From: Nitrospirota bacterium
Lineage (GTDB): Bacteria > Nitrospirota > Thermodesulfovibrionia > Thermodesulfovibrionales > UBA9159
NCBI GenBank assembly: GCA_023382175.1
Contig: JAMCQB010000049.1
Span: forward strand, 2,888-66,887
Length of the DNA: 64,000 nt
Direction of reading: 5' to 3'
Part shown: positions 2,386 to 28,494 of the stretch, one piece after another
Layout of the letters: each line of letters opens with the position of its first letter
Position numbering within the stretch: position 1 is the first letter of the stretch
Position numbers and translations under genes: made by a program
The notes under the pieces: model-generated
The model's input: the letters and a program-made list of their open reading frames with translations, nothing else
What the model was told of the DNA's origin: nothing
Databases searched by the model: none

Positions 2386-2395
2386 GAGGAAGGAA

Positions 2396-6357: not shown

Positions 6358-6358
6358 C

Positions 6359-15178: not shown

Positions 15179-15296
15179 CGGGCACTGCCCTGACGGAAAT
15201 ACTGGAAGTCGTTGTCTCCAGGTCTTACCCCGTGCAACGGCGCCTGCGAAGAACGCCTGAGAAGGAGAAAGCACATACCGGAAGGAGGTGAGCGAA

Positions 15297-15461
15297 ATGT
15301 GTCCAAGTTTTAATAGGCCGATTTGTGAAGTGGCGGGTATCGAACCGGAAAGAATACACTGCACCGATAAAAACGCCTGCATGGGAGAATGGGAAAAGTG
15401 CCCGGTCTTCATAGCCCAATTTTTTGTGGAGGCAGGCATAGCATTTGACAGAGTTGCATAG
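15297..15461 (+). CDS. small cysteine protein, paralog C2 (54 aa, below the ORF-track cutoff)
   Basis: Hand translation gives MCPSFNRPICEVAGIEPERIHCTDKNACMGEWEKCPVFIAQFFVEAGIAFDRVA. A GGAGGTGAGCGAA RBS precedes it. The C-terminal C-x6-CPVF matches the family. Confidence 0.55.
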   Translation: MCPSFNRPICEVAGIEPERIHCTDKNACMGEWEKCPVFIAQFFVEAGIAFDRVA

Positions 15462-15500: not shown

Positions 15501-15535
15501 AAGAGACCCGGGAAGATTTTCGGGTCTCTTTATTA
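15501..15535 (+). terminator. intrinsic terminator
   Basis: AGAGACCCG / CGGGTCTCT stem followed by TTATT. Confidence 0.55.
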
Positions 15536-15551
15536 CAATTCTGTTACAAAA

Positions 15552-15596
15552 AATTAACCTGGCTGTAATAATCCTGTAACAAAATAGTTGTATCCT
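15552..15596 (+). promoter_or_regulatory. Pho-box-like promoter
   Basis: AATTAAC ctgg CTGTAAT aatc CTGTAAC, then 10 bp, then TATCCT (15591-15596). The geometry and -10 hexamer are the same as at pstS. Confidence 0.6.
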
Positions 15597-15616
15597 TGAT
15601 ACTAAGGAGGATAAGA

Positions 15617-15832
15617 ATGCATCTAAAAAGTGGAGCGATCTGTCAATTTCTGAAAGGGGGTTCTGACGGAGCTCAGTGCAGCGTGGTCGGCAGGTTCATC
15701 AGGCTCATGGAAGACGCCGACATCCGGCTCTGTATGGGCAGACACCATGAGGCATGCTCATACTATGTGCTCTCATTACGGGGACTGGCTCTTAGGGCTG
15801 CGGATCCTGATACTGCATTAGGCACGCGGTAG
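15617..15832 (+). CDS. small four-cysteine protein, paralog D
   Basis: ATG 15617 follows AAGGAGG. The Cys pattern is C-x11-C-x17-C-x7-C (ICQF...AQCS...RLCMGRHHEACSYY). Confidence 0.5.
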   Translation: MHLKSGAICQFLKGGSDGAQCSVVGRFIRLMEDADIRLCMGRHHEACSYYVLSLRGLALRAADPDTALGTR

Positions 15833-15870
15833 AATGTTCCGTCTTTCCTATAAAAGGTGCCCCACCGTGT

Positions 15871-16197
15871 ATGCTTAACGAATTGACGACACAATCTGCA
15901 ACAGGAATTGAGGAGATGAGATGTCCCTCTTGCGATTCCGATGCTATCTATAAGTATGGAAGGGCATGGACAGGAAAACAGAGGTTTCTCTGCATGATGT
16001 GCGGGATGCAATTTACCGGCAATGCCGGGAAGGCAACGGTGAAAGGCAAACCGGCTTGTCCGGAATGCGGGAAGCCCATGAACCTCTATAAGATAGAGGG
16101 TATTGTTGTGCGGTTCAGATGTTCGGGCTATCCAAAATGTAGAACATTCAAAAAATATAGGATGAAGGAGGAGCCAGATGAGCCATTACATCCATAA
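15871..16197 (+). CDS. double zinc-ribbon protein (InsA-like CxxC ribbon plus topoisomerase-type C4 finger), putative DNA binding
   Basis: CPSCDS...GKQRFLCMMCGMQF resembles transposase/InsA-type ribbons. CPECGKPM...FRCSGYPKC resembles the Topo I C4 finger. ATG 15916 is an alternative start. Confidence 0.5.
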   Translation: MLNELTTQSATGIEEMRCPSCDSDAIYKYGRAWTGKQRFLCMMCGMQFTGNAGKATVKGKPACPECGKPMNLYKIEGIVVRFRCSGYPKCRTFKKYRMKEEPDEPLHP

Positions 16198-16549
16198 CGT
16201 CCCGGGAAGATTGAGAGTTAAAAGTCCGGCAGTTAAGAAGAACACGGATGCCGCGGTTGAAATCCGAAAGATTTTGAGCGCCATGAACGGTATTGCAACG
16301 GTCGACATTAACCTCATCACCGGCAGTGTTCTCATTAACTACAATCCGGCGACCGTACAATACAAAGACATTGTAGGCACGCTCCAAAGGAAGGGCTACT
16401 TTGATACGTCAAAGGCGATAACAAATGATCAATACATCCAGAGAGCCGCTTCGAAAGCAGGCAATATCGTCGGAAAGGCTATCTTCGGTACATTTGTGGA
16501 AAAGGCATTCGAAGGGTCGGCTTTGTCATTAATAACATTCTTGATCTAA
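16178..16549 (+). CDS. HMA2-type (cysteine-less heavy-metal-associated-like) domain protein with hydrophobic C-terminal tail
   Basis: H..PGRLRVK...N.ITGSVLINY is the motif shared by three other proteins in this window. It overlaps the upstream ORF. Confidence 0.6.
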   Translation: MSHYIHNVPGRLRVKSPAVKKNTDAAVEIRKILSAMNGIATVDINLITGSVLINYNPATVQYKDIVGTLQRKGYFDTSKAITNDQYIQRAASKAGNIVGKAIFGTFVEKAFEGSALSLITFLI

Positions 16550-16569
16550 TTCTAGATGTCTTCACTCGC

Positions 16570-16890
16570 TCACTTTTCTGCTTCAAGATTTTCTGCCTTG
16601 AGTTTTAGTTCGCTAATTTGACAAAGTATTTTTTCAGAAAACTCAGACTCGCCGAGATCTTTATACTCGGGCATTAATTTCCGCACATCCGGATAGTCTT
16701 TAAATAAAAGTTCCAACATGTTGGATTGTGACCTTGCCAGATCAATATAGGACTTCTTTAGCGCAATATATTTTCCTTTATACGTTGCTAAGTCATTCTG
16801 CGGTTTTTTTTGAAGAGCAATACTCACTATACTTACGATCACGATCAATAGAGCAAAGAATAAATGCGTCCAAACACTTTTGTTTATCAT
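16570..16890 (-). CDS. hypothetical N-terminally membrane-anchored coiled-coil protein
   Basis: One N-terminal TM segment followed by a charged helical region. No family was recognised. Confidence 0.4.
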   Translation of the reverse strand: MINKSVWTHLFFALLIVIVSIVSIALQKKPQNDLATYKGKYIALKKSYIDLARSQSNMLELLFKDYPDVRKLMPEYKDLGESEFSEKILCQISELKLKAENLEAEK

Positions 16891-17004
16891 GTTGCCCTTT
16901 CTTTATTGAAGGTCATATTATCCATGTTTTCAGAGAGTTCAAGCGATTCTTTCTTTTTCTTGTACAGCTCAAGGTATACATCAATCGATATGCCGTCTCG
17001 ATTG

Positions 17005-17721
17005 TCATTTTCCTTCACGAACTCTTTCTGCAAAATAGACGGGCAAACCGGATTCTCCAATGGCCGAAGCCACTCTTTCTAAGTCGTAGGGCGCCCTTAT
17101 AAAATCGGTTTTCACGCCTTCGGGCAGACATTCGACGAGGGTCAGGCATGCCCGTGTATCCCCATCCTTCGGCTTTCCGACGCTGCCGGCATTGATGAAT
17201 ACCTTGCCGTCCACATCCCTCCTGTATGGAATATGGGTATGCCCGTAAATCAAGATACCCGCCTTTGCCTTGTCCGCCATTTCGAGAAAAAATTTATCTT
17301 TCCGGTCCTGGTGCCAATAGAGGTTATTCTTCAGAGGCGTAGCATGGAATATCTTGACCGTTCTTCCATGACAGGAGAAAGCGATCTCGAACGGGAGGCT
17401 TCTCATATATTCCTTACTTTTCCCCGAGGCATGTTTTTTTGTCCACTCAAAGGCCAGCGCCGCCATCTCCTCCTGAAGGGGATTCTCATATCTGCACCCG
17501 CAATGCTCCTTATTATTGCCTACGGCTTCATCATAGTTGCCCTGTACTCCCTCGATTTTATGTTCCACAAGGAAATCGACTACCTCATTCACAAATGGCG
17601 CATAGCCTCCGACGTCGCCGAGGTGATACAGCTTATCCACTTTCTGCAAAACGGCTGTCTCACATACCGCCTTTAATGCCTCGATATTGCCGTGAATGTC
17701 TCCTAGTATTCCGAGTTTCAT
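17005..17721 (-). CDS. metallophosphoesterase (calcineurin-like, YfcE/MJ0936-like)
   Basis: GDIHGN, GDVGGY, GNYD and GHTH motifs. Confidence 0.85.
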   Translation of the reverse strand: MKLGILGDIHGNIEALKAVCETAVLQKVDKLYHLGDVGGYAPFVNEVVDFLVEHKIEGVQGNYDEAVGNNKEHCGCRYENPLQEEMAALAFEWTKKHASGKSKEYMRSLPFEIAFSCHGRTVKIFHATPLKNNLYWHQDRKDKFFLEMADKAKAGILIYGHTHIPYRRDVDGKVFINAGSVGKPKDGDTRACLTLVECLPEGVKTDFIRAPYDLERVASAIGESGLPVYFAERVREGK

Positions 17722-17790
17722 CCGCCGATCTCCTTATACCAACAAAGTAATTGCATCGCAGCTCGCGTTCTTTACTATGATTGCTCATCA

Positions 17791-18054
17791 TCAGGTGCGA
17801 GACTTGCCTCTTCTGACGCTCAACACGTATTCAACCTTTCTGCTTACCAATATAGGCAAGAAATCTTTGACCCTTGCATTTCTTTTGAAACCCTTCAGCA
17901 CTAACTCATAAAGCTTCCCCACTTCTTCGAGTGACGCGCCGATACGCCCTGCAACTGTCTGCATGGCGTTTAGATGGCGCAGTCTTTCGGGTTCATCTTC
18001 ATAAAGCGCATGAAGATGAACATTCTCATCCTGCGAGGTACCCTTTACAGCCAT
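17791..18054 (-). CDS. small hypothetical protein, possibly DUF3562-like
   Basis: 87 aa. The C-terminal LYE...ARVKDFLPILVSRKV pattern is reminiscent of DUF3562, recalled from memory only. Confidence 0.35.
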   Translation of the reverse strand: MAVKGTSQDENVHLHALYEDEPERLRHLNAMQTVAGRIGASLEEVGKLYELVLKGFKRNARVKDFLPILVSRKVEYVLSVRRGKSRT

Positions 18055-18115
18055 GGCAATTTCTTAAGAACGGTATTCATTAAGATCACGGTGACCAATT
18101 TCCATACTCGTGTCT

Positions 18116-19315
18116 TCAACCTTTCAACTCCCGTATTCTGTCTGTCAATTCCCAGGGCAGCCCTATATCCATTCTGCCCACATGTCCATATACTGCAAGC
18201 CTTCTGTAAAAACCGCCCTTAACAATGGAGGGCAGGTACCGCAGATTGAACTGTTTTATTATTCCCGCAAGTCGAAAGTCAAAATGCCTCTCAATGAGTT
18301 CTGCAATCTTCTCATCAGAGGTCTTCCCTGTGCCAAAGGTCTCTACCTGAACACTCACCGGCCTTGAAAGACCTATAGAATAGCTGAGATGTATCTCGCA
18401 TTCCTCTGCAAGCCCTGCTGCTACCACATTCTTTGCCGCATATCTGGCGGCATATGCGCCTATCCTGTCTATACGCATGGGGTCTTTTCCGCTCAGGGCA
18501 GAGCCGCTGTGCCGGGAATATTCTCCATAGGTGTCTATGGCATTCTTTCTCCCTGTTAAGCCTGAATGGACAGAAGGACCACCAACTATGAACGGCCCGT
18601 CGGGATTTATGAATATCCTCGTGTTTGTATCAGGTTTGATCTCCTCATCGGCGAATACAGGGTTTACAACAGCAGCCCTTATATCGTCATGCAGTTTCTT
18701 TAAATCAGGACCGCCTGATGCTAACGGTTTGTTCTGGCTCGCGATCACTGTAACACTGTGAATACTGTAAGGCCTGCCATCCCTGTATTCCACTCCTACC
18801 TGTGTTTTCCCGTCAGGTGCAAGATAGGGGAGTATCTTCTGGAGCCTGACAGAGGTCAGTTTTCTTGCAAGCCTGTGAGCGAGCCAGATGGGAAGGGGCA
18901 TAAAAGATGCGGTCTGGTTGCAGGCAAAGCCGAAGACAGTGACCTGATTCCTGACAGGGATATTATCCATCTCCTCCTCCGATAGCTCTCTCTCATCAAG
19001 GCAGCAATGCTCATCTGAAGGCAATTCCTTGAGGCTTGTTACAATGCTGCAGGTCTTGCCGTTAAAGGCATGCTGGTCATAGCCGATCTGGTTTATAACC
19101 TGTCTTGCTATATACGGGAAATCTACAATGGCATTGGATTCAAACCTTGCTGCTATAAAAACTATGGCTGTGGATACAGCACACTCAGCAATGACCCTTG
19201 AAAATGGGTCCTGCTGAAGGAAATGATCTACAAGGGCATCGCTTATCTGGTCACAGAGCTTGTCAGGGTGTCCTTCTGTTACAGATTCTGATATAAAAAT
19301 AAAGTCCTTTTTCAT
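18116..19315 (-). CDS. S-adenosylmethionine synthetase-like protein (divergent MetK paralog)
   Basis: The N-terminal SESVTEGHPDKLCDQISDA and GLTGRK..DTYG...SGKDP..DR.GAYAARY are clearly MetK-like. The GAGDQG signature region is replaced. Confidence 0.8.
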   Translation of the reverse strand: MKKDFIFISESVTEGHPDKLCDQISDALVDHFLQQDPFSRVIAECAVSTAIVFIAARFESNAIVDFPYIARQVINQIGYDQHAFNGKTCSIVTSLKELPSDEHCCLDERELSEEEMDNIPVRNQVTVFGFACNQTASFMPLPIWLAHRLARKLTSVRLQKILPYLAPDGKTQVGVEYRDGRPYSIHSVTVIASQNKPLASGGPDLKKLHDDIRAAVVNPVFADEEIKPDTNTRIFINPDGPFIVGGPSVHSGLTGRKNAIDTYGEYSRHSGSALSGKDPMRIDRIGAYAARYAAKNVVAAGLAEECEIHLSYSIGLSRPVSVQVETFGTGKTSDEKIAELIERHFDFRLAGIIKQFNLRYLPSIVKGGFYRRLAVYGHVGRMDIGLPWELTDRIRELKG

Positions 19316-19329
19316 TTAGCACCTCATTG

Positions 19330-19407
19330 CTTAAGGTTAAGGTTGAGGCTAAGGTTAAGAATTACAAATTTTTAATCTCTCTTAACCTAAACCTTAACCT
19401 CAACCTG
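19330..19407. repeat. hexamer-based palindrome (TTRAGG)n / (CCTYAA)n between the ATPase stop and the metK-like start
   Basis: ttaagg ttaagg ttgagg ctaagg ttaaga, then a loop, then tcttaacc taaacc ttaacc tcaacc. The right arm includes the ATPase stop codon. Confidence 0.6.
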
Positions 19408-22400
19408 TTCTTTTTGTGCCTTCATTCACTAACAATGGCATCACCGCACTGCCTCCAATCACAATACCATCGAGGATACCTATGGGAGCCAATCCCAAAA
19501 GATTTCGGAGCCCTGGTAGCGCCATGGCAAGAAGCTGTACGGCAAAGGAACCTCCGAGGGCGATATTGAGATATTTATTGGGCAGTAGTTTTTCCTTATC
19601 AAATATAGAATGCTTCTCGGAGCGGCAACTTATGGCGTGGAGAAGCTGACCTGCGGTAAGGCTCATAAAAGCCATGGCGCTTGCCTTCTGTCCCATACCG
19701 TATCTCATCACGCCATATCCATAGGCCCCCAGGGTCCCCGCGGAAATCACTGCGGATTCAAATGTGATTCTTTTGAAATCCGACGTCTTGACGATCAGTT
19801 CTTCAGGATCCCGTGGAGGCTGGCTCAGCACATCAGGTTCAGGGGGTTCGAGGGCAAGGGCAAGACCCGGCGCTATATCGGACATAAGGTTGATCCACAG
19901 CAGCTGTATCGCACTGAGAGGTTGACCGAGCCCCCCTGCAATAGCAGTGAACATAACCATGATCTCGCTCAGATTTGTCGACAGCAGGAAATGGACGGAT
20001 TTCCTGATGTTGTTATAGATGGTCCTTCCCTGGCTTATGGCGATGATCATCGTTGCGAGTTCATCGTCTTCGATGACAACGTCTGCGACTTCCCGGGCAA
20101 CATCGGTGCCCACATGTCCCATTGCGATGCCTATATCCGCTGCTTTGAGGGCAGGGCCGTCATTAATACCATCTCCCGTCATGGCCACAATCTTTCCCGC
20201 ACCCTGGAGCGCCTGAACTATCTGGAGCTTATGGGCAGGACTCACGCGCGAAAAAACATGCACCCTCTCGCAGAGCGCCTTCATCACTTCAGGGTCGATA
20301 CTGGCAAGGTGAGCGGAATCAAGGATCTCGAGTTGTTCGCCATTGCTGAGGTTCAATTCCTTTCCTATGGCATAGGCGGTCGGGCTCTGGTCGCCGGTTA
20401 TCATGACCGTCTCAATCCCTGCCCTGTGAAATTCCCCTATCAACCCCTTCACGCCTCCTCTGACCGGATCAGCCATTCCTACAAGACCCAGCCACACAAG
20501 ATTATCGCTGAAATCGACATCATTATTAAGAAACGCGCCCGGTTCACCATCACTGAGAGAGTACGCCACCCCAAGGACACGGAGAGCCTCCCCGGCCATA
20601 CGCTCATTTTCCGTCTCTATGGCGAGCCGGTCCTCATCGGTCAAGGGAATCTTCCTGCCATCCTTCATATGCCACCTGCACATCGACAGGACCTCGTTCG
20701 GGCTCCCCTTTACGGCAACAAGCGCGGAATGGTTGCCTGCGCGGTGAAGTGTATACATGTAGTTGCGGTTTTCAGAACGATGTTGAATGTTCACCAGGAG
20801 AAATTTTTCCCTGAGTCTTACCACATCGACCCCCGAACTCAATGCTATGTGGATCAGCGCATTCTCCGTAGGAGAACCGTTGACCGCATATTCACCATGC
20901 TGTCCGATCACTTCACTTTCATTGCAGAGAGCCGCTATGTGAATGAGTCTCAGGAGTTCATCGAAGAGATATACACTCGCCGGTTCACCGGACGCAAAAA
21001 ACTGCCCGTCGGATACAGTGAAGCGCCTCATCCCACTAAATGCCGTGACAACAGACATCCTGTTCAGGGTGATCGTTCCTGTTTTGTCGAGGCATATGGT
21101 GTGGATAGAGCCGAGGGTTTCGACCGCTTCGAGTCGCCGTATGAGGACGTTGTGCCTCCGCATATTTCTGATGCCCAGGGCTAAGGTTGTGGTCGCCACT
21201 GTCGGAAGTCCTTCGGGGACGGCGGCGATGGCAAGGGATATGGAGGTTTTGAGCATCTGTAAAAAACCGTATCCACGAAGAAGTCCCGTAACAAAGACCA
21301 GGCCGCAGACAGCGCCGCAGATCAATACCAGTTGGCTGCCCATCATGTCCAGTTGGCGCTCCATAGGGGTTTCAGGAGGTCTTGCTTCACCGACGAGGAT
21401 TTGTATCCTTCCGATCTCGGTAAACCTCCCTGTCGCAACGGCAACAGCAATCCCCTGTCCTCCGACAACAAGTGTCCCCATGTATACCATGTTCGTCCTG
21501 TCAGCGAGGGGGATGTTGTCCCTCTCACCCTCTCCCGCCAGGGGAGAGGGTTTATAAATTTGTTTCCCTCCCCCTTGATGGGGGAGGGTGAGGGAGGGGG
21601 TGGCTGTTGTTTTAACCACAGGCATACTCTCGCCGGTGAGTGCTGACTCATCGATGCTCAGGTGATTGGCTTCAATGAGCCTTGCGTCTGCCGCAACATA
21701 GCTGCCGGGCCTGAGCAGAAGGAGGTCTCCGGGCACTACGTTTTCTGCGCCTATCTCTTTCAGACGACCATCCCGCAGCACTATAGCAGAGGGTCTCACA
21801 AGATTCTTCAGCGAATGGATCGTTTTTTCGGTCTGGCTCTCGGTTGTGTAACCGATGGCGGCATTGATGAGGACTACGCCCATGATCACCACCGCATCTG
21901 CAAGACCGCCGGTGAGGAGCGAAATGCCCGCAGCAGCTCCCAGGAGGGCGACAGGAAGGGATTTGAACTGGTTGATGAACATACTCAGCCCTGAACGCGG
22001 AACAGATTCAGGAAGGACATTCGGACCGTATTTTTTGAGATGTGCCCCGGCGAGGTCGCCGGATAAGCCCGAATCTTTCGACGTGCCGAGAGATTGGAGA
22101 ACCTCGGTCGCCTCAGCAAGATGCCACGGCTCGACTCTCTGGTCCTCGGACCGGATAATGCTTTTCCTTAATTTTCTCCTGCTTCTGAGCTCTCCGCGTT
22201 CCGGGGTCAGGACTTCGCCTGGCCTTGCTTTTTCCGGAAGCGGGTTGTGGACCTTTGCATGTCGAACTTCTTTCCCGGAGCCTGCTGCCACCCCTGGAAC
22301 GGGTAATGAAAAACAAGATGACTGCCTTCCGGCATTTTTTTTGTGAGCTTCGACAACGTCCGCAATGAGCAGGGCTATTGAATGGTGGGGGTTGTCTGAA

Positions 22401-22570
22401 TTAAAGAAAACAAGCACACTCCCGGTCAAAGAGTTTACCGAGAATTTCAGTATCTCTTTATGAGACGACAGACCCCCCTCTATCTCTCTCTTGAGCCTCT
22501 CAGAGCGGTATAGCCCATCTACCTTAAATCGCGCCCTGCCTTTTACAGCAGCATGTATGGGCCGAACCAC
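19400..22570 (-). CDS. P2-type cation-translocating P-type ATPase with N-terminal HMA2-type domain
   Basis: TGES, PEGLP, DKTGTIT, MITGDQ and GDGINDGPALK motifs. The TM5/TM6 motifs STNLSEI and INLMSD resemble SERCA-like Ca-site residues. The N-terminal KGRARFKV...N.LTGSVLVFF is an HMA2-type domain. Confidence 0.9.
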   Translation of the reverse strand: MVRPIHAAVKGRARFKVDGLYRSERLKREIEGGLSSHKEILKFSVNSLTGSVLVFFNSDNPHHSIALLIADVVEAHKKNAGRQSSCFSLPVPGVAAGSGKEVRHAKVHNPLPEKARPGEVLTPERGELRSRRKLRKSIIRSEDQRVEPWHLAEATEVLQSLGTSKDSGLSGDLAGAHLKKYGPNVLPESVPRSGLSMFINQFKSLPVALLGAAAGISLLTGGLADAVVIMGVVLINAAIGYTTESQTEKTIHSLKNLVRPSAIVLRDGRLKEIGAENVVPGDLLLLRPGSYVAADARLIEANHLSIDESALTGESMPVVKTTATPSLTLPHQGGGKQIYKPSPLAGEGERDNIPLADRTNMVYMGTLVVGGQGIAVAVATGRFTEIGRIQILVGEARPPETPMERQLDMMGSQLVLICGAVCGLVFVTGLLRGYGFLQMLKTSISLAIAAVPEGLPTVATTTLALGIRNMRRHNVLIRRLEAVETLGSIHTICLDKTGTITLNRMSVVTAFSGMRRFTVSDGQFFASGEPASVYLFDELLRLIHIAALCNESEVIGQHGEYAVNGSPTENALIHIALSSGVDVVRLREKFLLVNIQHRSENRNYMYTLHRAGNHSALVAVKGSPNEVLSMCRWHMKDGRKIPLTDEDRLAIETENERMAGEALRVLGVAYSLSDGEPGAFLNNDVDFSDNLVWLGLVGMADPVRGGVKGLIGEFHRAGIETVMITGDQSPTAYAIGKELNLSNGEQLEILDSAHLASIDPEVMKALCERVHVFSRVSPAHKLQIVQALQGAGKIVAMTGDGINDGPALKAADIGIAMGHVGTDVAREVADVVIEDDELATMIIAISQGRTIYNNIRKSVHFLLSTNLSEIMVMFTAIAGGLGQPLSAIQLLWINLMSDIAPGLALALEPPEPDVLSQPPRDPEELIVKTSDFKRITFESAVISAGTLGAYGYGVMRYGMGQKASAMAFMSLTAGQLLHAISCRSEKHSIFDKEKLLPNKYLNIALGGSFAVQLLAMALPGLRNLLGLAPIGILDGIVIGGSAVMPLLVNEGTKRTG
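21519..21600. repeat. double-hairpin GC-rich palindromic element inserted in frame in the ATPase gene
   Basis: CCCTCTCCC-gccag-GGGAGAGGG (21528-21550) and CCCTCCCCC-ttgat-GGGGGAGGG (21566-21588). It is translated as ...LTLPHQGGGKQIYKPSPLAGEGERD... Confidence 0.65.
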
Positions 22571-22585
22571 ACCTTTTATCCCTTT

Positions 22586-23266
22586 TTACCCTTCGTTCTC
22601 GGGGTTTTTTTCTGATACGCCTGCTTTCGGAGCCGTTGCTTCTTTTCGAGCGCCTGTAACGGCTGGTCTCGGTTTCGGCAGGGCGGCGCCTGCAACCTCC
22701 TTCACTCCTTCAACAACCCCAACAAGCATATCCTTGACAGCCTTTACCGCGGTATTCCCTATAGTTCCGGCAGCCTCGATCGCCCCTCCCACAGCCACCT
22801 TTGCCACATCTTCCACATTCCCGCCGACTTCCTTGGTTGCTTCGATGACCCCGTCAACCGCCCTCCGCGCAACCATGGCAACATCAGCGCCTACCTCAGC
22901 AGCACCTTTGACTGCGCCCTTTACCGTCTGGCTGGCAACGGTCACGACATCTCCGCCGACATCGCTCACTCCCATGACGACACCCTTCGCAACGCTCTTT
23001 GTGCTTAAAATGAGGCCTGTGCCGACCTCTTCCGTCGCCTGAATCGCACCCTTTACCACGTCTCTTGTAATGGTAACTGCTTCATTGGCCACTGAACCAG
23101 TGGCTCTCAGAGTGTTGGAAACGGTATTCCTCACCAGGCTGACGATTTCAGCCTCGATCTCGTTGATGCCCTTGAGGCTGCTCACGACACCTTCTTTTAC
23201 TGCTGTTCCTGCCTTGCCGATTCCTTCGCCCATCGGGCTTTCCTCTATGACATGCTCATTAGACAT
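22586..23266 (-). CDS. tandem 22-residue repeat protein (about 7-8 repeats), unknown function
   Basis: The start is set at ATG 23266, behind GAGGAGG. The repeats are TRDVVKGAIQATEEVGTGLILS / TKSVAKGVVMGVSDVGGDVVTV / ASQTVKGAVKGAAEVGADVAMV / ARRAVDGVIEATKEVGGNVEDV / AKVAVGGAIEAAGTIGNTAVKA, and so on. Confidence 0.6.
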   Translation of the reverse strand: MSNEHVIEESPMGEGIGKAGTAVKEGVVSSLKGINEIEAEIVSLVRNTVSNTLRATGSVANEAVTITRDVVKGAIQATEEVGTGLILSTKSVAKGVVMGVSDVGGDVVTVASQTVKGAVKGAAEVGADVAMVARRAVDGVIEATKEVGGNVEDVAKVAVGGAIEAAGTIGNTAVKAVKDMLVGVVEGVKEVAGAALPKPRPAVTGARKEATAPKAGVSEKNPENEG

Positions 23267-23310
23267 GGGTAACCTCCTCTTTTTCACAAACGTGGGTAGC
23301 TGTTTATCAT

Positions 23311-23333
23311 AAAAACGGAAGGGAAATCCCTTC
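23311..23333 (-). terminator. possible weak terminator/attenuator between the HMA2-TM gene and the repeat-protein gene
   Basis: On the minus strand, GAAGGG-atTT-CCCTTC followed by CGTTTTTAT. Confidence 0.35.
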
Positions 23334-23346
23334 TTCCTCCAGACCG

Positions 23347-23829
23347 TTATGCTGCGACCCCGGCGCCTTGCCCTGACTTGAGGAATATGTTAAATGCGTA
23401 CCAGAAGGCGGCATACCATGGGAGCGCAGTAAGATTTCCTACGCTCATTTGGTATATTCCGGCGCCGAGGAGCAGGAGAAAAGCCAGCCCTCCGATGTCT
23501 ATCTCGCCCCCGGTAAGCGCCACAAGCTGAGTATTCATCCCTTTAAAGGTTTCCGATACCCGCTGCTGCAACCTTCTCGGAGAGGCGTTCAGTCCTTGAA
23601 GGCTGAAAAGATTACCGGCCATGGCGTATCCCGCAATTCTTTCACTATCCAGATCGTGCATCACGAGCAAACTGCCGGTTAAGGCATTGACTTCAACGGT
23701 CTTGATGCCTTCAAAACCGGAAAATCGTTCCTTCAAGCCTCCAAAAAATGCACGATCACCCTTTTTTGAAGGTATCCTGATCCTCAACCTTCCTCTGGTC
23801 CGATGGCTTATATAAGCGCGCGGGAGCAT
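23347..23829 (-). CDS. HMA2-type domain protein with C-terminal transmembrane segments
   Basis: The N-terminal H.TRGRLRIRIP...N.LTGSLLVMH motif and the C-terminal GGLAFLLLLGAGIY...ALPWYAAFWYAFNIFL. Its start overlaps the upstream stop (TAATG). Confidence 0.6.
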   Translation of the reverse strand: MLPRAYISHRTRGRLRIRIPSKKGDRAFFGGLKERFSGFEGIKTVEVNALTGSLLVMHDLDSERIAGYAMAGNLFSLQGLNASPRRLQQRVSETFKGMNTQLVALTGGEIDIGGLAFLLLLGAGIYQMSVGNLTALPWYAAFWYAFNIFLKSGQGAGVAA

Positions 23830-24119
23830 TAAGCGTTTGGTTCGCCTTCCGGCGCAACCGGGGCAGATGCGGCTTTTTCCGCCTCCGAGATCTCAGCTTT
23901 TACCTCGGCTACCAGGTCCTCAACCACCTCACCTACTTCAGCAAAAGTCTCCTTGCCTTTTTCAAAGAGGATAAGTCCTCCCTTTATCGCTGCCTTTGCC
24001 ACCGGTTTTGCCACACCTGCAATAACGGGGAGCACGGCAGGAGCAAGGACAGCCGCCCCTATGCCAATAGCAAGCCCTGTCACAACATTTCCCTTCAGGA
24101 CATCATCAAAAAGTCCCAT
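23829..24119 (-). CDS. DUF5132-like small membrane protein
   Basis: MGLFDDVLKGNVVTGLAIGIGAAVLAPAVLPVIAGVAKPVAKAAIKGGLILFEKG followed by an acidic tail. This matches my recollection of DUF5132 proteins, which are often adjacent to HMA2/P-type ATPase genes. Confidence 0.55.
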   Translation of the reverse strand: MGLFDDVLKGNVVTGLAIGIGAAVLAPAVLPVIAGVAKPVAKAAIKGGLILFEKGKETFAEVGEVVEDLVAEVKAEISEAEKAASAPVAPEGEPNA

Positions 24120-24211
24120 TCCGAGCCTCCTTTCTTTTGTATATCTTTACCATATCACTTTCATCATTTAGCGTCCATGAGTTCTTTCATTACTTGCCTA
24201 CAAGAAGACAA

Positions 24212-24267
24212 ATTTCATTGAAATTTAACGGTAGCTTCATAAGGACGTAACAGTACTGTGGTTTACT
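24212..24267 (+). promoter_or_regulatory. Pho-box-like promoter (four phased boxes)
   Basis: ATTTCAT tgaa ATTTAAC ggta GCTTCAT aagg ACGTAAC, then 10 bp, then TTTACT (24262-24267). Confidence 0.55.
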
Positions 24268-24300
24268 ATGCCCAGGATCAGACGAAAGAGGATGACTGCT

Positions 24301-24564
24301 ATGATGCAGTACAAGATTTTACATCATGTCCCAGGCCGTATCAGGATTGAGGTGCCCTCCATTAAGGGACGTTCCCTGAAGGCTCTAAAGCGATTATCAG
24401 ATATTCCCGTTCCGTGCGGTATAGAGGACATTCGCCCTAATCCCTTGACAGGAAGCCTCTTGATAAAGTATGACCCAGGCCGGATAAATATCGTTTCCTA
24501 TCTGAGGGACATGGCATCCAGGGACGTGATAAACAATGTACTCGACAAAGGAGGTTTGTTATGA
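24301..24564 (+). CDS. stand-alone HMA2-type domain protein
   Basis: HHVPGRIRIEVP...NPLTGSLLIKYDP. The start was moved to ATG 24301 because ATG 24268 abuts the predicted -10. The RBS is AAGAGGA. Confidence 0.6.
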   Translation: MMQYKILHHVPGRIRIEVPSIKGRSLKALKRLSDIPVPCGIEDIRPNPLTGSLLIKYDPGRINIVSYLRDMASRDVINNVLDKGGLL

Positions 24565-24770
24565 ACAGCACCCATAACATTGCATCTATGATACACCTCA
24601 CCAATGAATTGGAATTGCAGTGCCCCTACTTTGATGCATCCGACGTCTGCAATGCCTCGCTCTCCTCATTATTGCCATCGCCGACTATGAGGGTGAATTT
24701 CTGTAACAGCGAAGACTATGACAATTGCCCCATATTCCTGGCTAAGGTCTTAAGAAGGAGGCGGAAATGA
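24561..24770 (+). CDS. small four-cysteine protein, paralog E
   Basis: ATGA start/stop overlap with the upstream gene and an AAGGAGG RBS. The Cys pattern is C-x8-C-x17-C-x7-CPIF. Confidence 0.55.
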   Translation: MNSTHNIASMIHLTNELELQCPYFDASDVCNASLSSLLPSPTMRVNFCNSEDYDNCPIFLAKVLRRRRK

Positions 24771-24958
24771 CATGTCTCGACTATGTGTCCGAAGATTTGA
24801 GATGTCTCAGGGGTATCCCCGTTACTCCAAGGTTCAGCAGCTTCTTCTGTAAAGGAAAACATGAGAAATGTCCTTTGATCATATGGGAGAAATCTCAGAC
24901 AAAGAACCCGGAGATGTTACGGCCGAAATCATTTATCAATATATGGAGGGAACCATGA
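24767..24958 (+). CDS. small four-cysteine protein, paralog F
   Basis: ATGA overlap and an AAGGAGG RBS. The Cys pattern is C-x9-C-x14-C-x6-CPLI. Confidence 0.5.
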   Translation: MTCLDYVSEDLRCLRGIPVTPRFSSFFCKGKHEKCPLIIWEKSQTKNPEMLRPKSFINIWREP

Positions 24959-25134
24959 AATGTCCGCATCTGGCAAAATGGGTCGTGTCTGTCTGTAAGG
25001 CTGTGAGTAATACTTATGTCCCCAGTAACTTTGAGCTTCAAGAGTACTGTAAGACAAAAAGCCATAAGAAATGCCCTTTCTTTTTAAAGAATACAGCCGT
25101 GAAAAGAGAAGCGGATGGCCTGATCTCAGCATAG
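24955..25134 (+). CDS. small four-cysteine protein, paralog G
   Basis: ATGA overlap with F and a GGAGGG RBS. MKCPHLAKWVVSVCKAV...YCKTKSHKKCPFFL gives the pattern C-x10-C-x17-C-x7-CPFF. Confidence 0.55.
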   Translation: MKCPHLAKWVVSVCKAVSNTYVPSNFELQEYCKTKSHKKCPFFLKNTAVKREADGLISA

Positions 25135-25410: not shown

Positions 25411-25466
25411 ATGTAACAGAAAATTAATCTTCTTGTAACATAATTGTAACAATCAAAATGTATCCT
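25411..25466 (+). promoter_or_regulatory. Pho-box promoter of pstS (four phased boxes)
   Basis: ATGTAAC agaa AATTAAT cttc TTGTAAC ataa TTGTAAC, then 10 bp, then TATCCT (25461-25466). Confidence 0.7.
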
Positions 25467-25487: not shown

Positions 25488-26498
25488 ATGAAAAATGTAA
25501 TAAGTTTAGTTCTCGCAATCGCCGTTATTCTCTCGTTCACGGTGGCAGGAGCAGAAGAAACATTGAACGGCGCAGGTGCAACATTCCCCTATCCTGTTTA
25601 TTCTGCATGGGCATATGACTATCATAAGACAACAGGTGTAAAACTTAATTACCAGTCAATAGGCTCAGGGGGAGGCATCAGACAGATCGTAAACAGAACA
25701 GTGGATTTTGGAGGCTCCGACAATGTTCTTACCCCGCAGGACCTCAATAAAGACAATCTGCTTCAATTCCCGGCAGTAATGGGCGGTGTTGTCCCTGTGG
25801 TCAATATACCAGGCGTTAAGGAGGGCGAGCTAAGGCTTGATTCCGAGGCTGTATGCAAAATATTCCTCGGAGATATCAAACAGTGGAATGACAAGAAAAT
25901 AAAAGACTTAAATCCGAAAATAAATCTCCCTGATAAAGAGATAACCGTTGTGCACAGGTCAGACGGCTCAGGAACAACAGCCATCTATACCCATTATCTC
26001 AGCGGCGCATGCGCTGCATGGAAAGATAAGGTCGGCTATGGAACATCAGTCAAGTGGCCGGTTGGCATAGGCGGCAAAGGGAATGAAGGTGTTGCCAACT
26101 ATGTTAAGCGGACACCGAATTCCATCGGATATGTGGAATTCGCCTATGCAAAGCAGAATAAGCTTGCACACACACTCCTGAAGAATCCGGCAGGAAACTT
26201 TGTTGAACCGTCCTTTGATACCTTTGAAGATGCTGCTGCCACAGCGGATTTTGATGCCAAAAACCATTTTGCCACATGGCTTACCAACGCACCGGGCAAG
26301 AATTCATGGCCTATAGCTGGCGCTACCTTTATACTCCTCGCAAAGGAAAAAAAGGACTCTAATGTAAAGACCGTAAAATTCTTTGACTGGGCGTTCAAAA
26401 ATGGTGATGCAAAGGCAAAGGAACTCATCTATATCCCGATGCCAAAGTCTCTAAAGGATAAAATCAGGGCATACTGGAAGGCAAACGGAATATATTAG
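25488..26498 (+). CDS. pstS: phosphate ABC transporter substrate-binding protein
   Basis: Signal peptide, GAGATFPYPVY, SIGSGGG and RSDGSGTT motifs. Confidence 0.95.
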   Translation: MKNVISLVLAIAVILSFTVAGAEETLNGAGATFPYPVYSAWAYDYHKTTGVKLNYQSIGSGGGIRQIVNRTVDFGGSDNVLTPQDLNKDNLLQFPAVMGGVVPVVNIPGVKEGELRLDSEAVCKIFLGDIKQWNDKKIKDLNPKINLPDKEITVVHRSDGSGTTAIYTHYLSGACAAWKDKVGYGTSVKWPVGIGGKGNEGVANYVKRTPNSIGYVEFAYAKQNKLAHTLLKNPAGNFVEPSFDTFEDAAATADFDAKNHFATWLTNAPGKNSWPIAGATFILLAKEKKDSNVKTVKFFDWAFKNGDAKAKELIYIPMPKSLKDKIRAYWKANGIY

Positions 26499-26520
26499 GT
26501 ACCACAGGCTAAAGGCGAAT

Positions 26521-26570
26521 AGGCTGAAGGCAAAAGGTTAAAACTGCCTTATTCCTTCAGCCTTTTTTTT
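26521..26570 (+). terminator. intrinsic terminator after pstS
   Basis: AGGCTGAAGG ... CCTTCAGCCT stem followed by T8. Confidence 0.7.
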
Positions 26571-26650
26571 GACCTTAAATTTAATCAAGAGAATTCAGGG
26601 AGGGGAGATATGAGATGCCTCGCGGCTCCGCTGCGGGGTAATTCATTAAA

Positions 26651-26679
26651 TTGCAATAGACAATTCCGATATGTATTAT
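26651..26679 (+). promoter_or_regulatory. possible sigma70-type internal promoter for pstCAB-phoU
   Basis: TTGCAA-N17-TATTAT. Confidence 0.35.
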
Positions 26680-26713
26680 ATATTGACCACTGACTGTAAG
26701 GAGCATTATCGCT

Positions 26714-27655: not shown

Positions 27656-28494
27656 GGCGTGAAAGATTAAGGGTTATACAGAGCCATGCTGCTTTTGTCG
27701 TAAGCACCCTTACCGCCCTGTTCGGTATTTTCTGGCTCGTATTCATTATCGGTGACATCCTTATTCACGGCATAGGTGCGCTGAACATAGACCTGTTCAT
27801 AAAGGACCCGGCCCCGGCAGGTGTGGAGGGAGGCGGCTTGAGGAACGCATTTGTAGGGCATCTGATGATAACCCTGTTTGCAACATTGATAGGCGTCCCT
27901 GTGGGCGTGCTCGGCGGCACATTCCTCGCAGAATACGCAAGGGGCAAAAAAATCGCCCGTTTTATAAGCATCCTCTCGGACATAATGGTAAGTGTTCCAG
28001 CCATTGTGGTCGGCACGTTCGTATATGCCATAATCGTAAAACCCCTCGGTCATTTCAGCGGCTGGGCAGGGGCGGTTGCCCTGGCAATAATAATGATCCC
28101 CGTTGTCCTGAGGACAACAGAGGACATGCTTTCCCTTGTATCATGGACGGTCAGAGAAGCTGCCTTTGCCCTCGGCGCTCCCTATTATAAAGTCATTCTA
28201 CAGGTGGTTTACAGGGGAGCGGCCACCGGCATCTTAACGGGGATCCTCCTTTCCATTGCAAGGGTTACAGGGGAAGCAGCGCCCCTTTTATTTACATCAT
28301 TTAACAACTCCTTCTTCTCCACAAACATGAATGAACCGATAGCTTCCCTTACGGTATCCATATTCCAGTATGCCATGGGGCCTTATGACAGCTGGCATGC
28401 GCAGGCATGGGCTGCAGCGCTGATGATTACGGTATTCATTCTCATTATTACAGTACTCGGAAGGCTCATCATAAAATGGAGGTACAAGAAGTGA
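27652..28494 (+). CDS. pstA: phosphate ABC transporter permease PstA
   Basis: Permease with [10 protein letters not shown] motif. Its start overlaps the pstC stop. Confidence 0.9.

What the first reader, a model, noticed from the sequence alone, without database searches (positions are those of the whole stretch)
15552..25134. Candidate undescribed system: HMA2 domains, a P2-type ATPase, DUF5132, a 22-mer repeat protein and small Cys proteins, flanked by Pho-box promoters
About 9.6 kb contains four copies of a cysteine-less HMA-like domain with the consensus H-x2-[PKR]-G-R-x-R-[IVF]...N-x-[LI]-T-G-S-[LV]-L. One copy is stand-alone (24301), one carries a hydrophobic tail (16178), one is fused to TM segments (23347), and one forms the N-terminus of a SERCA-like P2 ATPase (19400-22570).

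The minus-strand gene string runs DUF5132-like membrane protein, HMA2-TM protein (TAATG coupled), 22-residue-repeat protein, ATPase, MetK-like paralog, small protein, metallophosphoesterase, then a TM coiled-coil protein.

Two plus-strand operons bracket this string. One runs D, Zn-ribbon, HMA2. The other runs HMA2, E, F, G, all joined by ATGA overlaps. Both start at Pho-box-like promoters and encode the small four-Cys proteins.

I know of no experimentally defined function for this combination. One hypothesis is that it buffers or exports divalent cations (Ca, Mn or Zn type) released when polyphosphate is mobilised under Pi starvation. Alternatively it may load a membrane-bounded store, with the amphipathic repeat protein acting as a coat. 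No Pho box was found oriented toward the minus-strand string, so its regulation is open.
Basis: partly seen in the sequence, partly recalled or inferred. Interest (0 to 1): 0.9.

Follow-up and report, generated by a model that had tools for sequence, protein, structure and literature searches.

The report
Phosphate-starvation calcium-pump gene cluster
This is one copy of a conserved, horizontally spread gene cluster with no described function, built around a calcium-type ion pump with unusual partner proteins, and it appears to be switched on when phosphate runs short.

Summary
The region encodes four Cys-less HMA_2 (CoBaHMA) domains, a DUF5132 membrane protein, a 22-residue helical-repeat protein (Rep), a SERCA/PMR1-like P2A ATPase with an N-terminal CoBaHMA domain, a MetK paralog, DUF3562, a double Zn-ribbon and five small 4-Cys proteins.

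It is conserved as a unit. DUF5132, CoBaHMA-TM, Rep and ATPase lie in this order in 58 of 80 Rep-anchored loci, mostly Nitrospirota. The same core occurs in Nitrosospira multiformis ATCC 25196 and Nitrococcus, and a partial version occurs in Microvirga.

It sits in a Pho island (PhoA, PsiE, PhoH, pstSCAB-phoU). It also shares a rare direct-repeat box with pstS and a phoB-like gene. Classical Pho boxes precede the cluster in Nitrococcus and Microvirga.

The cluster MetK has lost the Asp residues that hold methionine but keeps the triphosphate and Mg residues. Elsewhere CYTH, pyrophosphatase or PPK/PPX genes sit beside the module.

PPK1 and PPK2 were not found in 40 of 41 related genomes.

Best reading: a Pho-regulated Ca2+-export or Ca2+-handling module tied to condensed-phosphate chemistry. 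I found no description of the cluster in the searched literature. The biochemical function is inferred, not shown.

The parts
15288..15461 (+).
   Evidence: Aligns with D, E, F and G on the C...C...C...C-P-x-F pattern. The hairpin is read.
15531..15581 (+). Two tandem Pho-box-like direct repeats (TGTAAYA-N4-TGTAAYA) in the promoter of the D / Zn-ribbon / CoBaHMA operon
   Evidence: One mismatch each to the pstS box. Only 4 such sites occur in the 2.85 Mb genome. The window holds 12 matches against 2.28 expected.
15596..15832 (+). Small 4-Cys protein D (probable ATG start at 15617 after AAGGAGG)
   Evidence: No Pfam or NCBIfam hit. Adjacent to the Zn-ribbon gene (ZnR- D78-) in 18 of 80 loci.
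15871..16197 (+). Double zinc-ribbon protein (8 Cys), similar to the IS1/IS1595 N-terminal Zn-binding domain
   Evidence: Pfam Zn_ribbon_InsA 33.1 bits and Zn_ribbon_IS1595 31.5 bits. NCBIfam IS1_IS1595_Zn 45.1 bits. The pair HMA2a-ZnR occurs in 33 of 80 loci.
16178..16549 (+). CoBaHMA (HMA_2) protein with a C-terminal amphipathic tail
   Evidence: HMA_2 48.7 bits. The tail is not hydrophobic enough to call a TM segment (maximum KD 1.37).
16570..16890 (-). TM plus coiled-coil protein; a lineage-specific addition, not core
   Evidence: TM segment at residues 1-30. Found in 1 of 80 loci.
17005..17721 (-). Metallophosphoesterase (Metallophos_2); a genus-level addition
   Evidence: 87.2 bits. Found in 5 of 80 loci and also in the second copy on C60.
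17791..18054 (-). DUF3562 small basic protein
   Evidence: 30.1 bits. Present in 29 of 80 loci, usually after MetK.
18116..19315 (-). Divergent MetK paralog. GAGDQG is replaced by PVRNQV, the Asp that holds methionine (human Asp258) is replaced by His, and GGGAFS is replaced by SGSALS. The HPDK, PDGKTQV, GLTGRK and KD..DR residues are kept.
   Evidence: The canonical MetK lies elsewhere on C101.
19400..22570 (-). P2A-type cation ATPase (1056 aa) with an N-terminal CoBaHMA domain and Ca-type site residues
22586..23287 (-). Rep: about eight 22-residue helix-turn repeats forming an alpha-solenoid, with no aromatic residues and no TM segment
23347..23829 (-). CoBaHMA domain fused to a C-terminal membrane hairpin
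   Evidence: HMA_2 57.8 bits over profile positions 10-153. Alignment A3. Hydrophobic segment at residues 102-133.
23829..24119 (-). DUF5132 protein: N-terminal TM segment followed by a helix with an invariant acidic stripe (E57, E61, E64, D68, E72, E76)
   Evidence: The TAATG overlap with the next gene is seen.
24236..24253 (+). Candidate weaker Pho box (CTTCATAAGGACGTAACA) before the CoBaHMA-E-F-G operon
   Evidence: My reading, compared with the psiE-type boxes. Not detected at 3 or fewer mismatches to the pstS-type pattern.
24268..24564 (+). Stand-alone CoBaHMA protein (a likely start at 24301)
   Evidence: HMA_2 33.4 bits. Divergent to DUF5132 in 32 of 80 loci.
24561..24770 (+). Small 4-Cys protein E
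24767..24958 (+). Small 4-Cys protein F
24955..25134 (+). Small 4-Cys protein G (59 aa from the ATGA-overlapping start)
   Evidence: Present in 28 of 80 loci.
25434..25451 (+). Reference Pho box (TGTAACATAATTGTAACA), 37 nt before pstS
25488..29923 (+). pstS-pstC-pstA-pstB-phoU (context)
   Evidence: Pfam ABC_tran and PhoU hits. pstS, pstC and pstA are my reading of the translations; no family search was run on them.

Best explanation
The region is one copy of a conserved, laterally spread gene cluster that belongs to the phosphate-starvation (Pho) regulon.

Core genes: a DUF5132 membrane protein; a CoBaHMA domain on a membrane hairpin; a 22-residue alpha-solenoid protein (Rep); stand-alone CoBaHMA proteins; a SERCA/PMR1/LMCA1-like P2A ATPase with a CoBaHMA domain at its N-terminus; and a MetK-derived enzyme.

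Proposed working (inferred):
1. When Pi is scarce, a PhoB-type regulator binds the direct-repeat boxes and switches on the operons.
2. The ATPase pumps Ca2+ (possibly also Mn2+) out of the cytoplasm.
3. The basic CoBaHMA domains, in cis and in trans, gate or tether the pump by binding an anionic partner. Candidates are anionic lipid, a condensed phosphate, or the acidic helix of DUF5132.
4. The MetK-like protein has lost the methionine-holding aspartates but kept the triphosphate and Mg2+ residues. It would act on a triphosphate group (tripolyphosphate or ATP) rather than make SAM.
5. The pump would then remove the divalent cations freed as phosphate-rich chelators are consumed.

Shown here: the gene content, the conservation, the Pho-type context and boxes, the Ca-type site residues, and the altered MetK site. 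Inferred: the ion, the direction of transport, the partner of CoBaHMA, and the MetK-like activity.
For: Conservation.
- DUF5132+ HMA2TM+ Rep+ ATPase+ occur in this order in 58 of 80 Rep-anchored loci, and with MetK in 51.
- The same core with a Rep homolog at 51-65% identity occurs in Nitrosospira multiformis, Nitrococcus and a 196 kb metagenome contig.
- DUF5132 x2, a CoBaHMA-ATPase and CoBaHMA-TM proteins occur in Microvirga.

Pho link.
- The window carries PhoA-type phosphatase, PsiE, PhoH, MGS and pstSCAB-phoU around the cluster.
- The box TGTAACA-N4-TGTAACA has 13 sites at 2 or fewer mismatches in 2.85 Mb. The four best lie before pstS, before an OmpR-family regulator next to a PhoR-like kinase, and twice before gene D.
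- The related loci hold 219 sites in 1.23 Mb. They lie before pstS (17 loci), before the D/ZnR/HMA2a operon (23-28 loci) and in the DUF5132/HMA2b divergent region (18 loci).
- Triple CTGTAAY/TGTCAT boxes lie upstream of the cluster in Nitrococcus and Microvirga.
- L014 has PhoU_div, PHO4, Porin_O_P and pst beside the cluster.

Pump.
- Best family and structure matches are PMR1-type, SERCA-type, SPCA1 and LMCA1.
- PEGL, N..E in M5 and N..SD in M6 are kept, here and in orthologues.
- CoBaHMA is present on all 55 full-length orthologues.

MetK-like.
- Asp258 to His in all 56 cluster copies, and also in the proteobacterial ones. GAGDQG is lost. The Mg and phosphate residues are kept.
- In human MAT, Asp258 binds the amino group of Met/SAM, and Asp258Gly loses SAM synthesis while keeping phosphatase activity (PMC6850014).

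Non-homologous neighbours with the same chemistry.
- Two CYTH genes in Microvirga.
- Inorganic pyrophosphatase directly after DUF5132.
- PPK1, PPX and PhoD in Nitrococcus.
- PPK2 in L106.
Against: - There is no expression or transport data.
- The ATPase scores below NCBIfam's equivalog cut-offs for Ca pumps (607.7 against 798.3), and the residue equivalent to SERCA E908 appears to be Gln. That is my own manual alignment, and one search shows the motif is shared.
- The window's own divergent promoter has only a weak box.
- The box is called a Pho box by its position before pstS, psiE and a phoB-like gene and by likeness to CTGTCAT-N4-CTGTCAT. PhoB binding was not shown.
- The MetK paralog still passes the metK equivalog threshold (381.9 against 309.4), so some SAM synthesis cannot be excluded.
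- The roles of Rep, DUF3562, the Zn-ribbon and the 4-Cys proteins are unexplained by this model.
- No Pho-type box was found near the Nitrosospira or L104 clusters at 3 or fewer mismatches.
Confidence: 0.45

Rival explanations
1. Organelle or inclusion builder. The ATPase loads Ca2+ into an intracellular compartment or mineral store (amorphous Ca-carbonate or Ca-phosphate). DUF5132 and the CoBaHMA hairpin protein sit in its envelope, and Rep acts as a scaffold.
For: - In Microcystis the marker gene for intracellular amorphous CaCO3 (ccyA) is flanked by two DUF5132 genes, a CoBaHMA-hairpin protein, a CoBaHMA protein and a Ca2+/H+ exchanger, several of them co-expressed with ccyA (bioRxiv 10.1101/2024.07.07.602159).
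- Many calcyanins themselves carry a CoBaHMA domain (PMC8890360).
- Intracellular carbonates are reported in some Thermodesulfovibrionia magnetotactic bacteria (PMC12710302).
- Hairpin-type membrane segments are present.
- Rep is a repeat scaffold-like fold.
Against: - The cluster contains no calcyanin-like glycine-zipper protein, carbonic anhydrase or bicarbonate transporter.
- The control signal is phosphate, not carbon.
- No inclusion has been reported for the carriers.
- P2A pumps of bacteria normally export across the cell membrane (established knowledge).
- A search for calcyanin in this genome was not possible, because no model or sequence was available from the tools.
Confidence: 0.2
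2. The cluster exports or buffers the Ca, Mg or Mn released when polyphosphate granules are degraded under Pi starvation.
For: - The Pho context is confirmed.
- In Nitrococcus the cluster lies next to ppk1 and ppx, and in L106 a DUF5132/HMA_2 pair lies next to PPK2.
- Ppx-GppA is present in this genome.
Against: - PPK1 was found in 0 of 1 (own genome) and 1 of 41 relatives, and PPK2 in 0 of 41. Cluster carriers that are 95-100% complete are among those lacking both.
- Most carriers in this order therefore have no known way to make polyphosphate.
Confidence: 0.1
3. The MetK gene is an ordinary extra SAM synthetase. It would supply methyl or aminocarboxypropyl groups for Pho-induced lipid remodelling, and the ATPase would be a housekeeping Ca exporter. 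The neighbours would share a promoter region without forming a functional system.
For: - MetK passes the NCBIfam metK equivalog cut-off.
- A GT21 glycosyltransferase with a box-like site upstream lies in the same island, which hints at lipid remodelling.
Against: - Fixed loss of GAGDQG and of the methionine-binding Asp in all 56 cluster copies and across phyla.
- The gene order is kept across Nitrospirota, Beta- and Gammaproteobacteria, with Rep at 51-65% identity.
- The CoBaHMA fusion is found only on this ATPase. The three other P2 ATPases of the genome lack it.
Confidence: 0.1
4. A heavy-metal (Cu, Zn or Cd) resistance locus, as the name HMA suggests.
For: A weak Pfam HMA (PF00403) co-hit on two of the proteins. 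The Cys-rich small proteins could bind metal.
Against: - None of the four domains has the CxxC metal site.
- The pump is P2 type with Cation_ATPase_N and Cation_ATPase_C, not P1B.
- The context is phosphate, not metal resistance.
Confidence: 0.03

Closest known systems
CoBaHMA domain family (Pfam HMA_2, PF19991) and the ccyA (calcyanin) neighbourhood of iACC-forming cyanobacteria
   Same: The same Cys-less HMA-like domain with a conserved His and basic residues. The same pairing with DUF5132 and with a CoBaHMA-hairpin membrane protein. A Ca2+ transporter lies next to them.
   Different: Here the transporter is a P2A ATPase carrying the domain itself, not a CAX exchanger. No calcyanin was seen. 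Rep, a MetK paralog, 4-Cys proteins and a Zn-ribbon are added. The control appears to be Pho-type. The hosts are anaerobic Nitrospirota and nitrifying Proteobacteria.
P2A Ca2+-ATPases (SERCA, SPCA1/PMR1, Listeria LMCA1)
   Same: The domain set, the DKTGT and PEGL motifs, and the M5 N..E and M6 N..[ST]D residues. These are the best family and structure matches.
   Different: About 150 extra N-terminal residues carry a CoBaHMA domain and a basic linker. Scores fall below the equivalog cut-offs. The E908 position is probably Gln. The gene is embedded in a fixed multi-gene cluster.
Pho regulon and the Pho box (PhoB direct repeats, CTGTCAT-N4-CTGTCAT in E. coli; from established knowledge)
   Same: 7-nt direct repeats with an 11-bp period, 22-48 nt before the start codons, shared with pstS, psiE and a phoB-like gene.
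   Different: The half-site in this lineage is TGTAACA or TTTCATA. A Ca-type P-type ATPase cluster is not a classical Pho regulon member. PhoB binding has not been tested.
S-adenosylmethionine synthetase (MetK/MAT)
   Same: The three-domain fold and the retained His, Lys and Asp residues for Mg2+ and triphosphate.
   Different: The GAGDQG signature and the methionine-anchoring Asp (human Asp258) are replaced in the whole clade. A canonical MetK is encoded elsewhere in the genome.
Ferrosome (fez) operons of anaerobes (from memory, not tested here)
   Same: A P-type ATPase encoded with small membrane proteins, proposed to load a metal store. The fez operon is spread laterally among anaerobes.
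   Different: The fez ATPase is a P1B-type iron pump under iron control, and there is no CoBaHMA, DUF5132, Rep or MetK. This is only a functional analogy for the organelle rival.

Membership tests
CoBaHMA / HMA_2 (PF19991) | Profile match above Pfam's gathering score | tested here: met
   48.7, 57.8 and 33.4 bits against a cut-off of 30 for three proteins. The ATPase N-terminus scores 29.5, marginally below; the whole-genome scan scored it 33.3.
CoBaHMA / HMA_2 (PF19991) | Conserved His before strand beta1, conserved basic residues, and no CxxC metal site | tested here: met
   H-x(2-4)-G-R-x-R in all four, with no Cys in the loop. H9, R14 and R16 are nearly invariant or invariant in 28 orthologues. 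The feature definition comes from PMC8890360.
CoBaHMA / HMA_2 (PF19991) | Ferredoxin-like fold with an extra strand beta0 and a basic surface patch | not tested
P2A Ca2+-ATPase | P-type core motifs (DKTGT, TGES, PEGL) and Cation_ATPase_N and Cation_ATPase_C | tested here: met
P2A Ca2+-ATPase | Ca2+-site residues of M4, M5, M6 and M8 (SERCA E309, N768, E771, N796, T799, D800, E908) | tested here: inconclusive
   E, N, E, N, S and D are present. The E908 position reads Gln in my manual alignment, and the HMMER alignment with SERCA stopped before M8.
P2A Ca2+-ATPase | Score above NCBIfam equivalog cut-offs (PMR1-type, SERCA-type) | tested here: not met
   607.7 against 798.3, and 521.2 against 703.4. 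I therefore describe it as Ca-pump-like, not as an equivalog.
P2A Ca2+-ATPase | Ca2+-dependent ATP hydrolysis and transport | not testable with these tools
   Needs biochemistry.
Pho regulon | Pho-box direct repeats in the promoter, shared with pstS | tested here: met
   Met for the D operon, weakly for the HMA2b operon. Met for the core operon in 14 of 57 relatives and in Nitrococcus and Microvirga.
Pho regulon | PhoB binding and induction at low Pi | not testable with these tools
   No RNA data set was available.
MetK (SAM synthetase) | Equivalog score and three domains | tested here: met
   TIGR01034 381.9 against 309.4. All three Pfam domains match.
MetK (SAM synthetase) | Signature GAGDQG and the methionine-binding Asp in GGPxGDxGLTGRK | tested here: not met
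   PVRNQV and GGPSVHSGLTGRK here, and the same change in all 56 cluster copies. The genome's canonical copy keeps GGPMGDTGLTGRK. The role of the Asp is taken from PMC6850014.
iACC (calcyanin) biomineralisation system | Presence of ccyA, that is a (GlyZip)3 C-terminal domain | not testable with these tools
   No profile or tool-supplied sequence of calcyanin was available. No protein in the cluster is recognised by Pfam or NCBIfam as such.

The most novel reading that the evidence does not exclude
The cluster is a PPK-independent, Pho-controlled system for handling calcium together with condensed phosphate. A MetK-derived enzyme would make or cleave tripolyphosphate from ATP. The basic CoBaHMA domains would sense or hold that anion. 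The Ca2+-ATPase, with the DUF5132 and CoBaHMA hairpin proteins and the Rep scaffold, would build or empty a Ca-phosphate or Ca-carbonate store. That store would be a bacterial counterpart of an acidocalcisome, sharing its envelope parts with cyanobacterial iACC inclusions.
Probability: 0.12. Interest if true: 0.9.

Novelty: new variant of a known kind. Interest (0 to 1): 0.72.

Why it matters
- It gives the CoBaHMA and DUF5132 families, so far known only as neighbours of the cyanobacterial calcification marker, a second and much wider genomic setting with a clear regulatory cue, phosphate starvation.
- It links Ca2+ pumping to phosphate economy in bacteria that lack polyphosphate kinases.
- It shows a MetK clade whose methionine site has been rebuilt, a candidate new enzyme activity.
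- It places the cluster in cultured strains (Nitrosospira multiformis ATCC 25196, Microvirga sp. VF16), so the function can be tested directly.
- If the inclusion reading is right, it would point to shared machinery for intracellular Ca minerals across phyla.

Tried and rejected
- Complex prediction of CoBaHMA-TM with DUF5132, using alignments A3 and A2: score 0.09, no verdict.
- AlphaFold2 of the 4-Cys protein G with 17 sequences: pLDDT 52, unusable, so no fold search was run.
- Fold searches with the Rep model: only de novo designed helical repeats in the PDB (best E 1.1e-3) and nothing meaningful in the ESM Atlas. The Atlas feature search for Rep and for G returned only unnamed clusters.
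- Sequencing-run search: no RNA holder listed.
- tblastn of DUF5132 against plasmids: no match.
- The Mesorhizobium plasmid hit is an ATPase fragment cut by IS21 and is uninformative.
- Literature: Gaschignard et al. 2024 (10.1002/prot.26668) is not held. There are no papers on DUF3562 or on Nitrosospira multiformis under phosphate starvation. The E. coli MetK Asp118/Asp238 mutagenesis paper was not found, so I rely on PMC6850014 for the human equivalents.
- The generic sigma-70 and terminator scan gave nothing above shuffled expectation for promoters.
- Heavy-metal resistance was considered and rejected (no CxxC; P2 rather than P1B).
- Bin contamination as the source of the second copy on C60 was considered. 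It is unlikely to matter, because near-complete relatives carry 2-5 Rep copies.

Full report
**1. What is in the sequence**

Minus strand, in order:
- DUF5132 protein, 23829-24119, 52.8 bits.
- A CoBaHMA/HMA_2 domain on a membrane hairpin, 23347-23829, 57.8 bits, with a TAATG overlap to the gene before it.
- The repeat protein Rep, 22586-23287, with no family match.
- A 1056-aa P2 ATPase, 19400-22570.
- A three-domain MetK, 18116-19315.
- DUF3562, 17791-18054.
- A metallophosphoesterase, 17005-17721.
- A TM coiled-coil protein, 16570-16890.

Plus strand:
- D (4-Cys), a double Zn-ribbon and a CoBaHMA protein, 15596-16549.
- CoBaHMA, E, F and G, 24268-25134, joined by ATGA overlaps.

Further points:
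- The N-terminus of the ATPase scores 29.5 bits against a cut-off of 30 for HMA_2. The genome scan scored it 33.3.
- The 22-residue period of Rep is significant (z = 10.5).
- A fifth 4-Cys ORF lies at 15288-15461. All five align on C...C...C...C-P-x-F.
- HMA_2 is the domain that the literature calls CoBaHMA.

**2. It is a conserved unit, not a chance neighbourhood**

Rep has only 68 relatives at 90% clustering among 5.8 billion proteins.

A scan of one genome per species found 250 Rep-encoding stretches. The best 80 loci are almost all from Thermodesulfovibrionia-type Nitrospirota MAGs. A few are labelled Deltaproteobacteria, Deferrimicrobium, Manganitrophus or Acidoferrales.

I ran phmmer with the window's proteins against six-frame ORFs of these loci. 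The results:

| Feature | Loci (of 80) |
|---|---|
| DUF5132, CoBaHMA-TM, Rep, ATPase in this order | 58 |
| The same with MetK as well | 51 |
| Divergent CoBaHMA gene next to DUF5132 | 32 |
| Convergent CoBaHMA and Zn-ribbon pair | 33 |
| Protein G | 28 |
| DUF3562 | 29 |
| pstS | 23 |
| Metallophosphoesterase | 5 |
| TM coiled-coil gene | 1 |

The last two genes are therefore local additions.

All 55 full-length ATPase orthologues start with the CoBaHMA extension. The three other P2 ATPases of this genome lack it.

The MAG itself (2.85 Mb, 86.8% complete) holds a second copy on contig C60 with a CorA-like gene inserted. Near-complete relatives hold up to five Rep copies.

Rep occurs in 56 of 401 sampled Nitrospirota genomes and 34 of 163 genera, in a patchy pattern.

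**3. The cluster reaches well beyond Nitrospirota**

A DUF5132 profile finds 2145 cluster representatives. I sampled their neighbourhoods:

| Locus | Gene content |
|---|---|
| Nitrosospira multiformis ATCC 25196 (L103) | DUF445, DUF5132, CoBaHMA-TM, Rep (62% identical to the window's), CoBaHMA, and ATPase-MetK on the other strand |
| 196 kb metagenome contig (L104) | The window's exact order, with Rep at 65% identity |
| Nitrococcus sp. (L105) | The cluster next to PhoD, PPK1 and PPX, with Rep at 51% identity |
| L108 | The cluster without MetK |
| Microvirga sp. VF16 plasmid (L099) | Two CYTH genes, two DUF5132 genes, a CoBaHMA-ATPase and two CoBaHMA-TM proteins |

HMA_2 lies beside DUF5132 in 9 of the 11 DUF5132-anchored loci sampled.

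Such high identity of Rep across phyla, together with a patchy distribution, points to lateral spread under strong constraint. This is inference.

**4. Phosphate control**

The window is a Pho island. It holds a PHP protein and a GT21 glycosyltransferase, PhoH, an MGS-like protein, PhoA-type alkaline phosphatase, BacA, PsiE and a kinase/receiver pair. The cluster follows, and then pstSCAB-phoU.

The promoters of pstS and of gene D share a roughly 55-nt design built from TGTAAYA repeats with an 11-bp period.

Genome-wide, TGTAACA-N4-TGTAACA has 13 sites at 2 or fewer mismatches. The four sites at 1 or fewer mismatches are:
- one before pstS;
- two before D;
- one directly before an OmpR-family regulator that sits beside an sCache-PAS kinase.

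Within the window there are 12 matches at 3 or fewer mismatches against 2.28 expected. One lies 22 nt before psiE.

In the 80 related loci the motif is about 39 times denser than in this genome. It sits before pstS, before the D/Zn-ribbon/CoBaHMA operon and in the DUF5132/CoBaHMA divergent region. Within 320 bp upstream of DUF5132, 14 of 57 loci have a site at 2 or fewer mismatches, against 0 of 400 random windows.

Independent confirmation comes from Proteobacteria:
- Nitrococcus has three tandem CTGTAAY boxes just before the first gene of the cluster, and another set before ppk.
- Microvirga has three tandem TGTCAT/C boxes between the CYTH and DUF5132 genes.

The window's own divergent promoter has only a weak variant at 24236-24253.

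**5. The parts**

*Pump.*
- The best matches are PMR1-type and SERCA-type families, both below equivalog cut-offs, and SPCA1, LMCA1 and SERCA structures.
- PEGL is kept, as are M5 N..E (unlike SPCA1) and M6 N..SD. Orthologues share these residues.
- The E908 position seems to be Gln.
- I read it as a Ca2+ (possibly Ca2+/Mn2+) exporter. This is inference.

*Rep.*
- AlphaFold2 (pLDDT 77.5, above 90 for residues 100-190) gives one long helix followed by six 19-residue helices with 3-residue turns.
- This is an alpha-solenoid whose only PDB look-alikes are designed helical repeats.
- Some relatives carry a C-terminal ROS/MucR zinc finger.

*DUF5132.* An N-terminal TM segment is followed by a helix with an invariant acidic stripe. 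The stripe is a possible partner for the basic CoBaHMA face. This is inference only, and the complex prediction gave no verdict.

*MetK-like.*
- The genome has a canonical MetK on C101.
- The cluster copy, and all 56 orthologues plus the proteobacterial ones, replace GAGDQG by P-[VA]-x-[ND]-Q-[VA].
- They replace the Asp of GGPxGDxGLTGRK by His, and GGGAFS by SG[AS]ALS.
- They keep EGHPDK, PDGKTQV, GLTGRK and KD..DR.
- In human MAT this Asp (Asp258) hydrogen-bonds the amino group of Met/SAM. Asp258Gly loses SAM formation but keeps phosphatase activity (PMC6850014).
- The clade therefore probably binds or cleaves a triphosphate without making SAM efficiently. This is inference.

*Analogous neighbours.* Non-homologous enzymes of condensed phosphate sit in the same place elsewhere:
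- CYTH, which in my recollection belongs to the triphosphate-tunnel enzymes, in Microvirga;
- inorganic pyrophosphatase 10 nt after DUF5132;
- PPK1, PPX and PhoD in Nitrococcus;
- PPK2 in L106.

**6.

*PolyP mobilisation.* PPK1 is not found in this genome and is found in only 1 of 41 genomes of the order. PPK2 is found in 0 of 41, and many of these genomes are 99-100% complete. Ppx-GppA is present. Most carriers here therefore lack a known polyP synthase, and this version is disfavoured for this lineage.

*Membrane-bounded store.* This remains open. Its main support is the shared CoBaHMA / DUF5132 / Ca-transporter set beside ccyA in Microcystis.

**7. Verdict**

- The cluster is a real, widespread unit that is probably Pho-regulated, and I found no description of it in the literature searched.
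- Its domains are known.
- Its function is inferred: Ca2+ export or handling coupled to condensed-phosphate chemistry during Pi starvation.
- Confidence is about 0.8 that it is a conserved Pho-linked CoBaHMA/Ca-pump system, and 0.45 for the specific mechanism.

Noticed in passing
L001 (G000:C60:1-7760): A second copy of the core (DUF5132, CoBaHMA-TM, Rep, ATPase, MetK, DUF3562, phosphoesterase) at 66-92% protein identity. A 322-aa CorA-like gene (GMN motif) is inserted between MetK and DUF3562.
   Followed up: partly
window 1622-3610: A box-like site (TTTAATAATCCTGTAACT) lies before a PHP-domain gene and a GT21 glycosyltransferase. This may be Pho-controlled glycolipid synthesis that replaces phospholipids.
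   Followed up: no
window 5522-8347: A box-like site (TTTCATATCCTTGTAACA) lies before a 4Fe-4S protein and an aldehyde:ferredoxin oxidoreductase. This is an unexpected companion for Pho genes and may be chance.
   Followed up: no
window 13243-13260: A psiE-type box (TTTCATAACCATGTAACA) lies 343 nt before the histidine kinase gene, with only a doubtful 60-aa ORF between them. It could mark a small RNA or a long leader.
   Followed up: no
41 genomes of the order (G000-G040): PPK1 is found in 1 of the 41 genomes and PPK2 in none, although many are 99-100% complete. The order seems to lack known polyphosphate kinases.
   Followed up: partly
L015, L016 and proteins P0001, P0005, P0006: Rep relatives fused to a C-terminal ROS/MucR zinc-finger domain, followed by DUF5132. 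One source names one of them as from a Syntrophobacteraceae MAG.
   Followed up: partly
L046, L049, L055, L065, L069, L071, L079: Orphan Rep genes without the ATPase or DUF5132, often followed by DUF3562. Rep has a life outside the cluster.
   Followed up: no
G000:C98:13320-13475 and C148:13782-13922: Further paralogs of the 4-Cys protein G (58% and 42% identity) lie elsewhere in the genome. The Atlas lists an unnamed cluster of 519 members, mostly Nitrospirota.
   Followed up: no
L103, L104, L106, L108, L099: A DUF445 (PF04286) membrane protein is a recurrent neighbour of DUF5132 in the proteobacterial versions. It was not among the Nitrospirota cluster genes examined, though DUF445 was not specifically searched for there.
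   Followed up: no
window 23318-23333 (minus strand): A terminator-like hairpin (GAAGGGATTTCCCTTC followed by a T run) lies between the CoBaHMA-TM gene and Rep. It may set different levels for the first two genes and the rest.
   Followed up: no
window 8808-9218 and L014:8323-8784: An MGS-like (methylglyoxal synthase family) gene lies near the cluster both in the window and in an unrelated 230 kb contig.
   Followed up: no
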